From: Octopus vulgaris
Taxonomy: Eukaryota
NCBI GenBank assembly: GCA_951406725.2
Contig: OX597815.1
Location: 183,520,001-183,584,000 of the forward strand
Reading direction: 5' to 3'
DNA length: 64,000 bases
Shown in pieces: positions 1 through 64,000 of this stretch. A program made the position numbers. The first letter of the stretch is position 1, and each line of letters starts with the position of its first letter.

Positions 1-3000
1 TCGTAGAGCTTTTAGGTGTTTTCGCTCAATAAACACACACAACGCCGGTCTGAGAATCGAAACCGCAATCCTGCGACCGCGAGTCCGCTGCCCTAACCAC
101 TAGGCCATTGCGCCTCTACATATGTATGTATATATATATATATATATATATATATATATATATATATATATGTGTGTGTGTGTGTATGTGTGTGTGTCTG
201 TGTTTGTCCCCCTAGCATTGATGACAACCGATGCTGGTGTGTTTACGTCCCTGTCACTTAGCGGTTCAGCAAAAGAGACCGATAGAATAAGTACTGGGCT
301 TACAAAGAATAAGTCCCGGGGCCGATTTGCTCAACTAAAGGCGGTGCTCCAGCATGGCCACAGTCAAATGACTGAAACAAGTAAAAGAGGAAAAGAGTAT
401 ATGTGTAGAGGCGCAATGGTCCAGTGGTTAGGGCAGCGGACTTGTGGTCGTAGGATCGCGGTTTCGATTCCCAGACCGAGCGTTGTGAGTGTTTATTGAG
501 CAAAAACACCTAAAGCTCAACGAGGCTCTGGCAGGGGGTGGTGGCGAACCCTGCTGTACTCTTTTGCCACAACTTTCTCTCATTCTTTCTTCTGTTGGCT
601 TGCTCGCTTAGCCAGCGGGGTGGCGTCATTTGAAGGCTAAAAACAATGTGAAGCACATTGTGACCAGCGATGTGTAGCAACATCTGATAGACTGGTTGGT
701 CACGGTGATCACGGTGATATTTATATATGTAGAGAATGTGTTGTATTGCACCTTTGACGTACGATATGATGGAATGATAATAATAATGTCCTTGCAAATT
801 GTTCTACTCAAGATACTGGTAATAACCCTTGACAGTATGCAACTCTCAACTTTACTCTGCTCTGAAGGCTGTCTGTGCATGTCCATTTCTATTGTGGCAC
901 AGTCCATTAGGAGCCAACCAATAGGGGTGTTCTTCTTCCACACAACAGAATGATAGGTAGATAGGTAGTAGATAGATAGTTAGCTAGCTAGATAGATAGA
1001 CAGATACCTAGACAGATAGACAGACAGATAGATAGAAAGATATCTAGACAGATACCTAGATAGATAGATAGATAGATAGATAGATAGATAGATAGATAGA
1101 TAGATAGATAGATAGATAGAAAGACAGATACCTAGATATATAAATAGATAGATAGATAGACAGACAGATACCTAGATAGATAGATAGATAGATAGATAGA
1201 TAGATAGATAGATAGATAGATAGATAGATAGATAGATAGATAGGCAGAAAAATAACTTGCTACTTAGATAGGTAGACAGACAGATACATAGATAGATAGA
1301 CACATAGAAAGCTAGCTAGCTAGATAGATAGACTGATAGCTATAGATGTAGAATTTGAAGTTTATAGCATTTATTTCTAGGCAGTGTTTCAGACCTTTTC
1401 ATTATTGAGTGATTGCTCTTGTTTTCATTTCTCTAGAAAATCTTAAAATACACTTCAAAATAACTGATCTTGGAAAATTAGCAAAATATATATTTTTTGA
1501 TATATTATTAAAAAATCGTGGCTTTTAGATAATACCTCTGCAAGGCCGTATTCGACAAGTTTTTGTTCTAGTCTCAATATCTAATTTGCAAGATGAATCC
1601 TTGGTTTTCTTTCGTTCACTGATCCGAAAACCTTTACCACATGGCTTGCTGCATGTTGACCACATTGACCATTCTTCATAAATACAGCCTGTAACACGGA
1701 GAAAACAAAAATGCATGTAGTTTTAAATATCAAAATAAAGTAATGCAAAATTGTAGAGATATCACCATGGAATATATTGCAATGGAATATTGTTAGTCTC
1801 TATGATCATAACTTTTGAGAGCAATTCTGGAACTAATTTAACCAAATTCGATGACTGGCACCCGGTCATTGCCAGTGCCACTGGACTGACTCCTGTGCAG
1901 GTGGCGAGTAAATAAACACCATTTCGACCCCGTATGTAGAGACCTATTGAGTCAAGTACATCAACATAAAAAAATCAATGGAAATTGTAGTTGTGATCCC
2001 TGTGCCGGTGGCACGTAAAAAGCACCATCCGAATGTGGCCGATGCTGGCGCCGCCTTGACTGGCCTCTGTGCCGGTGGAATGTAAAAAGCACCAACTGAT
2101 CGCCTGGCACCTGTGCTGGTGGCACATAAAAAGCACCCACTACACTCATGGAGTGGTTGGTGTTAGGAAGGGCATCCAGCTATAGAAGCACTGCCAGATC
2201 AGACTTGAGCCTGGTGCAGCCTTCTGGCTACCCAGACCCCGGTCGAACCATCCAACTCGTGCTAGCTTGGAAAACGGACGTTAAACGATGATGATGATGA
2301 TGATGATGATTCCTGGATAGTAAACAATGAAATCTATGAATAAAAATAAAAGACTGGATTGTAGAAGAAATGTTAATACACGGATACCACAAGGTACCTT
2401 GTGCAATGAATGTTGAAATTCATGACTTCAGTTTTAATTAGGCAGAAGAACAATATATCTAACGAGTTTGATATGTAGAATGTATTTAGTTGGTTGACTG
2501 ACCCCCTACATGATATATTTGCTTTATTGGAGCTGATGTAGGACAATTAATCAACTAGAATGACAAAATAGTGTCAGACATATCAATTTGTTTCAGGATG
2601 TAAGACATATAAGCTGAGATAACAGAAATGGTACCGTCAACAATGCCATTATTAAGCTGGGTGAAACTGAAAGCAGGTATCCATTGGGTGATGTGAATAA
2701 TAAGGTTATGTGAAATGAAGTGAACTTTAAGACTTAGAAGCAAATAGTATTTCAGAAATGTTGGGAATTAATTCTATAATATAAATTGGACATGGGCGAT
2801 CGTTGTATTCTTTCTTGTCTTGAGGTTCACAGCCAAACGGCTGGGTGGACCCACATGAAGAATGGCACACACGTGGAGACAGGAGCACAGATTGGGACGC
2901 AGTTTGTATTTTTTTCCTAACCCTCATACTTATTGAGAAAATCGATTAAAACTTTTTCTAATGGAATTTCCCTCTTTCTTCTGCCATTAAAACAACCAGT

Positions 3001-63000: not shown

Positions 63001-64000
63001 TTTAAATTTCGATGAAATTGTCAATATATTGCATGCGGTAGAAATCGATGTAAATGTATTTAATGATGGGAAATTTGATATAAACTGCTTACGTTTACAG
63101 AGCTTTGCAGAGAGAGTTACCAACATATCTTTTGTTGGATCGGTTGGCAAAATTTCAATTTCCACCGTCGTTTGACCATTATGTTGTGTAATGTGTATAG
63201 TTCGATCTGGTGAGGATGTCTAATAAATGAAATGAAAATTCAATTGAAATAATCGTCAACTAAACGAAAAACGTGAATATAAATCAGGTGATGCTTTCAA
63301 AGATTCAGATTTCACTATGATATATATGAATGAATATTATCGATTAATTTAGCAAGAGAGAATCGACTGATTAAAACGGGATAACGTTGAGTATTCGAAC
63401 TTTATATTGTGCGATTGGAAATGGTTCTGTGAATAGAATGAAGAAAAGAGCTACTAGTGAATACCTCGATTTGCATTTTTGCAGATGGACGTGAAATGAA
63501 AACCGTAAAGGATTTCACATTGTCGTGTCGAATAAGGCGAATTGTACCTCCGTCATCTAGGTTGGGGCCAATATCTAATGTGATAATCCTTTTGCTATTG
63601 GAATTAGTTAGCCATCCAAAGTCTGGTCTGATGTCACCGGGATTGCCAACTGGTGGATTGAGAGAGATGGCTGTATCTGGGAGGAAAGATTCATCATCCA
63701 TCGCTTCTGATATATTACAGAACCCTGATAAAGAAAACAATCAGCTCTTGTATAATGAGAAATTGAGGCAAAAAAGTGATTCAGTTGTAAAAGTGAAAGC
63801 CCTGAAACAGTTGATTTACGATGAATCAAGTCAGAAGTTAGCTGTCAATTTAAAACAAGGAGAATTAAGAAGCATCTTAACAGTATATATCACAAAAATA
63901 TCGGTGAATATGTGAAATATTTATCTGTCAGGGGCAAGAGAATATTGTTGTAAGAGTTCGAAAATAAGAATAAAATTAGAATTTCGTCAAATTAAACAGT

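What the first reader, a model, noticed from the sequence alone, without database searches (positions are those of the whole stretch)
1536..63724. SCO-spondin-like protein rebuilt as a beads-on-a-string lectin-mucin by tandem amplification of a 3-exon cassette
Seen: a 260+127+69 nt (456 nt, 152 aa) phase 1-1 cassette repeated on a ~2.12-kb unit (13 exon-A copies, every splice site and frame intact), then a ~5-kb PTS exon, a 14th diverged cassette and TSP1/TIL/VWC-like exons. Known: vertebrate SCO-spondin has a single F5/8C domain ahead of its TSP1/TIL/VWC run, and insect hemolectin has two. Inferred: here that region has been expanded to at least 14 globular domains separated by O-glycosylatable Thr/Pro stalks, giving a multivalent mucus, adhesive or egg-coat type protein whose length may vary between individuals.
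Basis: partly seen in the sequence, partly recalled or inferred. Interest (0 to 1): 0.85.

Follow-up and report, generated by a model that had tools for sequence, protein, structure and literature searches.

The report
Octopus SCO-spondin-like gene with amplified domain array
This window holds the middle of a giant secreted octopus gene in which a three-exon cassette for a small unnamed protein domain plus a sugar-carrying linker has been copied 13 times in a row, next to a mucin-like exon and SCO-spondin-type modules.

Summary
The repeat is real and lies on the minus strand. There are 13 exon-A (260 nt), 13 exon-B (127 nt) and 12 exon-C (69 nt) copies on a 2.07-2.13 kb unit. All 38 have AG/GT and open frames, and the cassette is phase 1-1. 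A 14th diverged cassette and 11 further exons (5 TSP1, 1 TIL by Pfam) form a phase-compatible chain down to 1536.

An Octopus bimaculoides protein named SCO-spondin-like carries VWD/C8/TIL/LDLa followed by the same cassette.

- The domain matches no Pfam family (0 of 23 sequences). F5/8C is only a language-model and structure-neighbour lead, so 'lectin' is unproven.
- The 5,035-nt Thr/Pro exon changes coding frame four times as assembled. The entering frame stops at 29978-29976, before the donor. Continuity of array and TSP1 exons therefore depends on these being assembly errors.
- VWC was not confirmed.

Exons vary less than introns (14/456 against 123/1575 columns), which argues for a working gene. 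The homogeneous block ends at both sides inside the window.

Verdict: a new variant of a known kind (SCO-spondin-like/mucin hybrid), of moderate interest.

The parts
62888..63724 (-). cassette 1: exon A 63724-63465, B 63219-63093, C 62956-62888
   Evidence: AG/GT at all three exons, open frames, 98.4-100% identical to the reference cassette
60759..61595 (-). cassette 2: A 61595-61336, B 61090-60964, C 60827-60759
58637..59473 (-). cassette 3: A 59473-59214, B 58968-58842, C 58705-58637
56519..57355 (-). cassette 4: A 57355-57096, B 56850-56724, C 56587-56519
54391..55227 (-). cassette 5: A 55227-54968, B 54722-54596, C 54459-54391
52263..53100 (-). cassette 6: A 53100-52841, B 52594-52468, C 52331-52263
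50140..50976 (-). cassette 7: A 50976-50717, B 50471-50345, C 50208-50140
48018..48854 (-). cassette 8: A 48854-48595, B 48349-48223, C 48086-48018
   Evidence: unit 99.7% identical to unit 10
45894..46729 (-). cassette 9: A 46729-46470, B 46225-46099, C 45962-45894
43769..44605 (-). cassette 10: A 44605-44346, B 44100-43974, C 43837-43769
41642..42479 (-). cassette 11: A 42479-42220, B 41973-41847, C 41710-41642
   Evidence: this unit is 2065 nt with a shorter C-to-A intron
39578..40414 (-). cassette 12: A 40414-40155, B 39909-39783, C 39646-39578
   Evidence: reference copy
37106..38297 (-). cassette 13, at the array edge: A 38297-38038 (96% identical), B 37232-37106 (86%), no exon C; A-to-B intron 805 nt instead of 244-246
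   Evidence: exon B is 90% identical (aa) to the first cassette of O. bimaculoides P0001
29728..34762 (-). Thr/Pro/Ser-rich (mucin-like) exon, 5,035 nt, built on 57-nt (19-aa) repeats. It has four frame breaks near 34113, 33631, 33459 and 31542. The entering frame stops at 29978-29976
22881..23137 (-). cassette 14 exon A (257 nt, phase 1 to 0)
   Evidence: 73-75% aa identity to array copies
22525..22651 (-). cassette 14 exon B (127 nt, phase 0 to 1)
21216..21284 (-). cassette 14 exon C (69 nt linker, phase 1 to 1)
16377..16548 (-). exon of 172 nt (phase 1 to 2), Cys-containing module without a Pfam match
   Evidence: 96.5% identical to O. bimaculoides P0022 residues 34-90
15555..15601 (-). 47-nt exon (phase 2 to 1), three-Cys end piece ahead of a TSP1 repeat
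14830..14988 (-). TSP1 repeat exon 1
   Evidence: Pfam TSP_1 E=2.6e-09
13096..13269 (-). TSP1 repeat exon 2
   Evidence: Pfam TSP_1 E=1.1e-08
10800..11046 (-). TIL domain exon (phase 1 to 2)
   Evidence: Pfam TIL E=1.7e-08; 91% identical to P0022
9678..9724 (-). second 47-nt exon (phase 2 to 1)
8550..8625 (-). TSP1 repeat 3, first half (phase 1 to 2)
   Evidence: Pfam TSP_1 E=3.5e-07
6325..6471 (-). TSP1 repeat 3, second half, plus the start of a further Cys module (phase 2 to 2); VWC not confirmed
4750..4799 (-). 50-nt exon (phase 2 to 1), found by the phase rule
3232..3402 (-). TSP1 repeat exon 4
   Evidence: Pfam TSP_1 E=1.7e-11
1536..1688 (-). TSP1 repeat exon 5; its phase-1 donor shows that the gene runs on beyond the window
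   Evidence: Pfam TSP1_CCN E=1.7e-08, TSP_1 E=6.4e-07

Best explanation
The window is an internal stretch of about 62 kb of one giant secreted-glycoprotein gene on the minus strand. The species is an octopus close to Octopus bimaculoides. In O. bimaculoides the 5' part, which lies outside this window, is a SCO-spondin-type head: three or four VWD domains with C8 and TIL, then LDLa. Such a head can form disulfide-linked multimers.

Inside the window come 13 cassettes. In each, exons A and B encode a domain of about 128 residues bounded by one Cys at each end. It belongs to a small unnamed family and is probably a beta-sandwich of the galactose-binding/F5/8C type. Exon C encodes a linker of about 23 residues rich in Thr and Pro. 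After the cassettes come a Thr/Pro/Ser mucin domain of about 1,670 codons, a 14th older cassette, and SCO-spondin-type TSP1/TIL modules.

The cassette is bounded by phase-1 introns on both sides, so unequal crossing-over can add or remove whole units in frame. Twelve units that are 97.7-99.7% identical, introns included, with diverged edges, show recent amplification or ongoing homogenisation.

Shown here: the anatomy, the phases, the constraint on the exons, and the SCO-spondin-like relatives.

Inferred: one transcript, with the four frame breaks in the mucin exon taken as assembly or allele-specific errors; heavy O-glycosylation; a multivalent binding or gel-forming role in mucus or adhesion.
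For: - Array anatomy and intact splice sites and frames: 38 of 38 cassette exons.
- Units are 2065-2129 nt and 97.7-99.7% identical.
- Exons are constrained. In ungapped columns 14 of 456 exon columns vary against 123 of 1575 intron columns (Fisher P=1.8e-4). Gapped columns number 0 in exons and 108 in introns. Exon C varies at 0 of 69 columns.
- From cassette 14 to the last TSP1 exon, 14 of 14 exons have AG/GT, no stops and compatible phases. Five junction codons read Cys inside Cys-rich modules.
- Pfam: TSP_1 in 5 exon ORFs and TIL in 1.
- O. bimaculoides P0001 (SCO-spondin-like, 1731 aa) has VWD, C8, TIL and LDLa followed by two cassettes.
- O. bimaculoides P0022 covers five of the 3' exons at 85-96% identity.
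- Thr/Pro frame pieces total 1,672 codons: T 31%, P 28%, S 14%, A 11%.
- Fold lead: F5/8C clusters appear among the Atlas neighbours of P0002 and of its 33%-identical paralogue P0009, with TM by query 0.66-0.72.
- SCO-spondin(-like) proteins are reported in O. vulgaris skin mucus (passages of PMC11431876 and PMC10138644). A SCO-spondin-like protein is reported in limpet pedal adhesive mucus (passages of PMC7333891).
Against: - As assembled, the mucin exon cannot link the array to the 3' exons. There are four unique indels (-2, -8, +1, -8 nt), a stop in the entering frame at 29978-29976 that lies 248 nt before the donor, and an outgoing phase of 2 where cassette 14 needs 1.
- No transcript evidence was available.
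- No database protein joins cassettes to TSP1 exons. P0001 ends in an intron after two cassettes, and P0022 starts after the cassettes.
- Pfam does not recognise the domain: 0 of 23 sequences, and 0 of 5 exon translations.
- The AlphaFold models were poor (mean pLDDT 59.7 and 50.7), and Foldseek found 0 matches at E<=0.001.
- Within the array, 9 of 14 variable exon sites change the residue, so purifying selection on the protein is moderate at best.
- The mucus proteome papers do not say which SCO-spondin-like gene was detected. Their supplements were closed.
Confidence: 0.68

Rival explanations
1. There are two products, not one. The array plus mucin exon encodes a protein that truly ends at the stop at 29978-29976, giving a VWD-head/domain-array/mucin protein without TSP1 repeats, as in the limpet adhesive protein. 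Cassette 14 and the TSP1/TIL exons are then either untranslated in that transcript or belong to a separate transcription unit.
For: The assembled sequence says so: the entering frame stops before the donor and the exon length is not a multiple of 3. The database models of O. bimaculoides are also split into a 5' piece (P0001) and a 3' piece (P0022). Limpet P-vulgata_3 is a SCO-spondin-like mucus protein that lacks the TSP1 part (passages of PMC7333891).
Against: - Each of the four frame-breaking junctions occurs once, whereas the canonical motifs occur 13-53 times. This fits errors or very recent events.
- The last Thr/Pro piece runs in frame into a phase-1 GT donor that fits the phase-1 acceptor of cassette 14.
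- The 3' exons keep splice sites and 85-96% identity with O. bimaculoides.
- The split database models both end or begin in read-through intron sequence, so they are truncated predictions rather than evidence of two genes.
Confidence: 0.2
2. The cassette domain is neither a homologue of the FA5/8C domain of SCO-spondin nor a lectin. It is a lineage-restricted beta-rich spacer or protein-binding module that only resembles galactose-binding-like folds in general shape.
For: - There is no Pfam match for any of 23 family members at E<=10.
- Only 20 of 1.84 billion representative proteins match at E<=0.001, and 18 of the 19 non-self hits are short single-exon fragments.
- Atlas feature overlaps are 121-147 of 256, below the 170 usual for true family members. 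MAM, Laminin_G_3 and CBM neighbours also appear.
- The PDB sequence search gave no discoidin hit.
Against: Two family members that are only 33% identical both have F5/8C clusters among their nearest neighbours, by features (0.92-0.93) and by structure. PF00754 is carried by 4 of 10 rows for one and 5 of 10 rows for the other. The single Cys near each end of the domain is kept in 14 of 14 cassettes; that this matches the end-to-end disulfide of F5/8C domains is recalled, not tested. Chick SCO-spondin does carry one FA5/8C domain (passage of PMC8487547).
Confidence: 0.4
3. The copy number or the array itself is an assembly artefact: over-expansion or mis-joining of a shorter repeat.
For: The neighbouring mucin exon carries four probable assembly-type indels. 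In O. bimaculoides part of the array sits on an unplaced 4.6-kb contig (P0002), which shows that this locus is hard to assemble.
Against: The 12 units are not identical. Each differs by substitutions and indels, with 123 variable and 108 gapped intron columns. Unit lengths range from 2065 to 2129 nt, and the similarity pattern is structured: units 7-10 are closest, and the edges are diverged.
Confidence: 0.1
4. The locus is a decaying pseudogene, and the array is a neutral satellite that happens to contain former exons.
For: Frame breaks and a premature stop in the mucin exon; 9 of 14 variable exon sites are non-synonymous.
Against: In total 52 of 52 other exons keep AG/GT and open frames. Exons vary 2.5-fold less than introns and carry no indels. 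The 3' exons are conserved with O. bimaculoides.
Confidence: 0.06

Closest known systems
Vertebrate SCO-spondin (chick Q2PC93, as described in PMC8487547; passage read)
   Same: A giant secreted modular protein. A VWD/C8/TIL head and LDLa are seen in the octopus relative P0001. TIL domains followed by short Cys pieces and TSP1 repeats are seen in the window, and the fish proteins P0023/P0024 align to them.
   Different: The review lists one FA5/8C domain and no mucin domain. Here there are at least 14 copies of a domain that Pfam does not recognise as F5/8C, each with a Thr/Pro linker, plus a mucin exon of about 1,670 codons. EMI, VWC and CTCK were not seen: they lie off the window or gave no Pfam match. 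Orthology to vertebrate SSPO was not tested.
Limpet pedal-mucus protein P-vulgata_3 (SCO-spondin-like adhesive protein, PMC7333891; passages read)
   Same: A molluscan SCO-spondin-like protein with VWD x3, C8, TIL and LDLa that is secreted into mucus. This makes a mucus or adhesion role for the octopus gene plausible.
   Different: The limpet protein as reported has no domain array, no mucin domain and no TSP1 part. Its relation to this gene was not tested.
Insect hemolectin/hemocytin (PMC4015701; passages read)
   Same: A VWD-type multimerising clotting protein with discoidin domain(s) needed to aggregate bacteria. It is a model for how binding domains on a VWD scaffold act multivalently.
   Different: It has few discoidin domains, no tandem near-identical cassette array and no long mucin domain.
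Gel-forming mucins (MUC2/MUC5 type; recalled knowledge)
   Same: A VWD-C8-TIL head plus a long single-exon Thr/Pro/Ser repeat domain built of short tandem units.
   Different: Mucins interrupt their PTS with CysD domains, not with an array of 128-residue domains each encoded by its own exons. Mucins lack TSP1 repeats.
Multi-exon cassette copy-number repeats such as the kringle IV-2 repeat of human LPA (recalled knowledge, no call)
   Same: A domain-encoding cassette of several exons is repeated head to tail with near-identical introns and symmetric intron phases, so that units can be gained or lost in frame.
   Different: The protein family and organism differ. Copy-number variation is documented for LPA and untested here.

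Membership tests
F5/8 type C (discoidin) domain, Pfam PF00754 | Sequence match to the family profile at or above the curated cut-off | tested here: not met
   No match at E<=10 for 5 exon translations, for P0001 and P0002, or for any of the 23 members of alignment A1.
F5/8 type C (discoidin) domain, Pfam PF00754 | Beta-sandwich (galactose-binding-like) fold of about 130-150 residues | tested here: inconclusive
   Atlas neighbours of P0002 and P0009 include F5/8C clusters at TM by query 0.66-0.72. My own AlphaFold models had mean pLDDT 59.7 and 50.7, and Foldseek against the PDB gave 0 matches at E<=0.001.
F5/8 type C (discoidin) domain, Pfam PF00754 | One Cys near each end of the domain (end-to-end disulfide; this feature is recalled, not from a call) | tested here: met
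   There is a Cys at residue 2 of exon A and at residue 41 of 42 of exon B in 14 of 14 cassettes. The disulfide itself was not testable.
F5/8 type C (discoidin) domain, Pfam PF00754 | Binding of sugar, lipid or collagen ligands | not testable with these tools
SCO-spondin family | Runs of TSP1 repeats interleaved with TIL domains | tested here: met
   Pfam TSP_1 in 5 exon ORFs and TIL in 1. The chain is phase-compatible. Fish TIL/TSP_1/VWC proteins align to these exons.
SCO-spondin family | N-terminal VWD-C8-TIL repeats followed by LDLa domains | tested here: inconclusive
   These are not in the window. They are present in O. bimaculoides P0001, which continues into the same cassette. The link for this species is inferred.
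SCO-spondin family | VWC domains | tested here: not met
   No VWC match in any exon ORF scanned at E<=1. The exon-by-exon search has low power.
SCO-spondin family | EMI domain at the start and CTCK at the end | not testable with these tools
   Both ends of the gene lie outside the window. P0001 gave no EMI match.
Gel-forming mucins | A long Thr/Pro/Ser tandem-repeat domain in one exon | tested here: inconclusive
   The exon is 5,035 nt with 57-nt repeats, and 1,672 codons are 84% T/P/S/A when read piecewise. The frame breaks 4 times, and the entering frame stops early.
Gel-forming mucins | Dense O-glycosylation and gel formation | not testable with these tools
   Needs biochemistry.
Multi-exon cassette tandem repeats (LPA KIV-2 type) | Head-to-tail units including introns, near-identical, with symmetric phases | tested here: met
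   Twelve full units are 97.7-99.7% identical. The intron on each side of the cassette is phase 1.
Multi-exon cassette tandem repeats (LPA KIV-2 type) | Copy number differs between individuals | not testable with these tools
   Only one assembly was available. Units 8 and 10 are 99.7% identical and k-mer distances of about 4250 nt recur, which hints at recent two-unit duplications.

The most novel reading that the evidence does not exclude
The frame changes in the mucin exon are real. The A/C-rich repeat has almost no T on the coding strand, so two reading frames stay open over the whole 4.4-kb repeat and the third over 993 codons. Indels then do not truncate the protein inside the repeat. They switch it between three different low-complexity polypeptides: a Thr/Pro mucin, an Asn/Ser/Lys/Tyr-rich block and a Gln/His-rich block. 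Together with a lineage-restricted, still unnamed binding domain amplified in concert, this would make the locus a frame-tolerant, rapidly evolving, length- and composition-variable secreted polymer.
Probability: 0.1. Interest if true: 0.7.

Novelty: new variant of a known kind. Interest (0 to 1): 0.5.

Why it matters
It shows how a conserved extracellular scaffold (the SCO-spondin/VWD family) can be rebuilt in a cephalopod. This happens through in-frame amplification of a whole multi-exon domain cassette and through a mucin exon. The locus also defines a small domain family that current domain libraries do not name. If the product is a mucus, sucker, egg-coat or adhesive component, the array gives a simple genetic dial for valency and length: the unit number. 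Practically, the locus is a warning for annotation. The public O. bimaculoides gene models break exactly here, and the mucin exon of this assembly carries frame-breaking indels.

Tried and rejected
- Pfam on exons A, B, A13, A14 and B14 gave nothing at E<=10. Pfam on P0002 and on all 23 members of A1 gave only scattered single weak hits: Crystallin, DUF11 and others, one member each.
- The PDB sequence profile search listed only designed 'Pizza' propellers (best E=3.5e-05, with no single stretch passing, all on profile positions 50-72) and weak unrelated hits. I treat this as a repeated short-motif match and not as homology.
- AlphaFold2 on P0002 (alignment A1) gave mean pLDDT 59.7. The exon-A part scored 69-90 but the exon-B part was below 50. 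AlphaFold2 on P0009 (alignment A2) gave 50.7. Both job slots are used.
The second model was not searched because it was worse.
- A search for long proteins (3031-5000 aa) with the cassette found none among 973 candidates. Proteins of 2000-3031 aa and above 5000 aa were not covered by that tool. The all-length representative search found no long protein with the cassette.
- ARAGORN found no tRNA.
- I considered coding on the plus strand and rejected it: the homologues and all splice signals are on the minus strand.
- No orthologous genomic loci could be fetched.
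Full report
**Observation.** The window has no N. K-mer spacing peaks at 2118-2129 nt, and the periodic part runs from about 38000 to the top of the window. The coding strand is the minus strand. The region 30.0-34.5 kb is a G/T-rich 57-nt tandem repeat on the plus strand (GC skew +0.7). Its reverse complement reads Thr/Pro/Ser.

Reading one unit gave exon A (260 nt), exon B (127 nt) and exon C (69 nt). BLASTN with these three exons found the following:
- 13 copies of A, 96.2-100% identical;
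- 13 copies of B, of which 12 are 97.6-100% identical and the last is 85.8%;
- 12 copies of C, all 100%;
- weaker matches at 23.1, 22.6 and 21.3 kb.

All 38 array exons have AG and GT and no stop.

Intron sizes are nearly fixed:
- A to B: 244-246 nt;
- B to C: 136 nt;
- C to A: 1227-1292 nt.

**The array as a repeat.** The 12 complete units are 2065-2129 nt long and 97.7-99.7% identical in pairs. Units 7-10 are the closest (units 8 and 10 at 99.7%), and units 2 and 3 are 99.1% identical. K-mer distances near 4250 nt fit recent two-unit duplications.

The units are not copies of one another. In ungapped columns, 123 of 1575 intron columns vary against 14 of 456 exon columns (Fisher P=1.8e-4). 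There are 108 gapped columns in introns and none in exons, and exon C never varies (0 of 69). Of the 14 variable exon sites, 9 change the residue and 5 do not. The constraint is therefore visible but moderate.

The near-identical block has edges inside the window:
- At the 3' side, cassette 13 has an A exon 96% identical and a B exon only 86% identical to the reference. It has an 805-nt A-to-B intron and no exon C.
- At the 5' side, the 276 nt above the first exon A match the array intron at 84-91% over only the last 92 nt. The rest matches a different part of that intron at 68-71%.

The window thus holds the whole homogenised block, and older, diverged units probably lie upstream.

**The mucin exon.** After exon B13 (phase 1 out) the next acceptor is AG at 34764-34763. 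The junction codon reads Arg, as at every C-to-A junction. The Thr/Pro reading ends at a GT donor after 29728, with one base carried over. That is phase 1 and would fit the phase-1 acceptor of cassette 14.

The exon is 5,035 nt, one base more than a multiple of three. The Thr/Pro frame moves four times, always in the same direction. Compared with the canonical repeat, the four changes are:

| Position (approx.) | Change |
|---|---|
| 34113 | 2 nt missing |
| 33631 | 8 nt missing |
| 33459 | 1 extra base in a C5A5 run |
| 31542 | 8 nt missing |

Each junction sequence occurs once in the exon, while the canonical motifs occur 13 to 53 times.

Read piecewise, the exon gives 1,672 Thr/Pro-frame codons: T 31%, P 28%, S 14%, A 11%. 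Read straight from the acceptor, it gives 1,594 codons. Only the first and fourth pieces (215 and 638 codons) are in the Thr/Pro frame, and the reading ends at TAG 29978-29976, 248 nt before the donor. Two frames are open over the whole repeat and the third over 993 codons, because the coding strand has almost no T.

As assembled, the array is therefore not joined in frame to what follows. This is the one break in the gene model. I cannot tell an assembly error from a real allele.

**The 3' part.** Cassette 14 is intact: A is 257 nt, B is 127 nt and C is 69 nt. Its A exon is 73-75% identical in protein to the array copies.

Using the O. bimaculoides protein P0022 as a guide together with the phase rule, I placed 11 further exons. 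They include a 50-nt exon at 4799-4750 that I predicted from the phases and then found. From cassette 14 to 1536, 14 of 14 exons have AG/GT, no stop and compatible phases, and five junction codons read Cys within Cys-rich modules.

Pfam gives TSP_1 for five exon ORFs (E from 1.7e-11 to 6.4e-07) and TIL for one (1.7e-08). No VWC match was obtained. The last exon ends in phase 1, so the gene continues below the window.

I searched the model exon by exon.

**Relatives.**
- Exon A is 76% identical to P0001, which NCBI names SCO-spondin-like [Octopus bimaculoides] (1731 aa). It also matches P0002, a partial uncharacterised protein on a 4.6-kb contig.
- Pfam on P0001 finds VWD (4 stretches), TIL, C8 and one LDLa, then nothing over the two cassettes at its end. 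The model ends in read-through sequence that matches the array's C-to-A intron.
- P0022 (338 aa) maps to five 3' exons at 85-96% identity and also ends in read-through intron. The species is therefore a close relative of O. bimaculoides. I did not determine which species it is.
- No database protein joins the cassettes to the TSP1 exons.
- The O. bimaculoides cassettes known to me are 63-84% identical to one another, while the window's array copies are 92-97% identical.
- Exon B13 is 90% identical to the first B of P0001, which is more than to its own array neighbours (79-81%). The homogeneous block is thus specific to this lineage or kept uniform by concerted evolution, while the edge copy keeps its orthology.

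**What the domain is.** Pfam does not recognise it in the exons, in P0002, or in any of 23 family members.

A scan of 1.84 billion representative proteins with P0002 found 20 at E<=0.001. Of the 19 other than P0002 itself, 18 are fragments of 85-135 residues that look like exon A plus read-through. One is P0009 (309 aa), an uncharacterised O. bimaculoides protein on the same 192-Mb contig as P0001, made of one domain plus a Thr/Ser/Pro tail.

The family alignment shows five invariant positions and a conserved core. Each cassette has one Cys near each end.

The ESM Atlas gave the same lead for P0002 and for P0009, which are only 33% identical:
- By features, F5/8C clusters score 0.92-0.93, but only 121-131 of 256 features are shared, below what true members usually share.
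- By structure, TM by query is 0.55-0.72, with PF00754 on 4 of 10 rows for P0002 and 5 of 10 rows for P0009. MAM, Laminin_G_3 and CBM rows also appear.

My own tests could not settle it. Both AlphaFold models were of low confidence, Foldseek found nothing significant, and the PDB profile search gave only a repeated short-motif match to designed propellers.

I therefore call the domain 'unnamed, probably a galactose-binding-like beta-sandwich'. Neither its homology with the FA5/8C domain of SCO-spondin nor lectin activity is shown.

**Comparison with what is known.**
- A review passage lists for chick SCO-spondin one EMI, three vWF-D, one FA5/8C, 13 LDLrA, 12 TIL, 27 TSR, seven vWF-C, three EGF-like and one CTCK (PMC8487547, passage).
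- Passages of PMC7333891 describe a limpet pedal-mucus protein with VWD x3, C8, TIL and LDLa that is homologous to the first third of SCO-spondin and expressed in the pedal sole.
- Passages of PMC11431876 and PMC10138644 list SCO-spondin and SCO-spondin-like proteins in Octopus vulgaris skin mucus, without saying which gene. Their supplements, which may hold the accessions, were closed.
- Passages of PMC4015701 say that the discoidin domain of Drosophila hemolectin is needed to aggregate bacteria.
- My searches for SCO-spondin with octopus, with cephalopod and mucin, and with discoidin and invertebrate listed no paper whose title or abstract start points to this architecture; I read passages of only two of them. 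The library does not cover most subscription journals.

**Mechanism and verdict.** The best reading is a single giant secreted glycoprotein. A multimerising VWD head is followed by a string of at least 14 small binding-type domains on short O-glycosylatable stalks, then a long mucin domain and a SCO-spondin-type tail. It was built and is kept uniform by unequal crossing-over of a phase-symmetric cassette.

The anatomy is shown. The single transcript, the glycosylation, the fold and the mucus or adhesion role are inferred.

It is a new variant of a known kind. It is of moderate interest for protein-architecture evolution and for cephalopod secretions, and it is a useful flag for annotation.

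Noticed in passing
window 63725-64000: The sequence above the first exon A is not a normal array intron. Its last 92 nt match at 84-91%. The rest matches a different part of the C-to-A intron at 68-71%, as if about 0.6-0.7 kb were missing. This marks the 5' edge of the homogenised block.
   Followed up: partly
window 43769-50976 (units 7-10): Units 8 and 10 are 99.7% identical and units 7 and 9 are 99.2%. K-mer distances near 4250 nt recur. This suggests a recent duplication of a two-unit block.
   Followed up: partly
window 40415-41641: The C-to-A intron of unit 11 is 1227 nt, against 1280-1292 nt in the other eleven. This makes unit 11 the short 2065-nt unit.
   Followed up: no
window 29976-34784: Two minus-strand frames are open over the whole 4.4-kb repeat (1633 and 1602 codons) and the third over 993 codons, because T is almost absent from the coding strand. 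The off-frames read Asn/Ser/Lys/Tyr-rich and Gln/His-rich repeats.
   Followed up: partly
window 36310-36795 (+): A 161-codon ORF in the intron between exon B13 and the mucin exon weakly matches the endonuclease-reverse transcriptase family (Exo_endo_phos_2, E=1.2e-04, below the curated cut-off). It is probably a retroelement fragment.
   Followed up: partly
window 40132-40596 (+) and the same place in other units: A plus-strand ORF of about 153-154 codons lies antisense to exon A and the intron before it. It is seen in the two units covered. It was not examined further and is most likely a by-product of the sense codon usage.
   Followed up: no
window 952-1332; 26102-26346; 27007-27226; 35414-36087; 19977-20229: Simple repeats lie in the introns: (GATA)n, three (TA)n tracts of up to 674 nt, and an 84-nt unit repeated 3 times.
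   Followed up: no
window about 29160-28230, 22470-21880, 17790-17700, 10760-10700, 7030-6865, 5480-5340: Similar short ORF translations recur in several introns, which points to a dispersed SINE-like element. The read-through tail of the O. bimaculoides model P0022 runs into the copy at about 10760.
   Followed up: no
alignment A1, profile positions 50-72: The family profile gives summed E-values down to 3.5e-05 against designed six-bladed 'Pizza' propellers. No single stretch passes on its own. I read this as a short hairpin motif that recurs in each blade, and it remains unexplained.
   Followed up: no
P0009 (O. bimaculoides XP_052821907.1): A second O. bimaculoides protein, on the same 192-Mb contig as P0001, consists of one copy of the domain (33% identical) followed by a Thr/Ser/Pro tail. 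It may be a paralogue or another piece of a badly modelled giant gene.
   Followed up: partly
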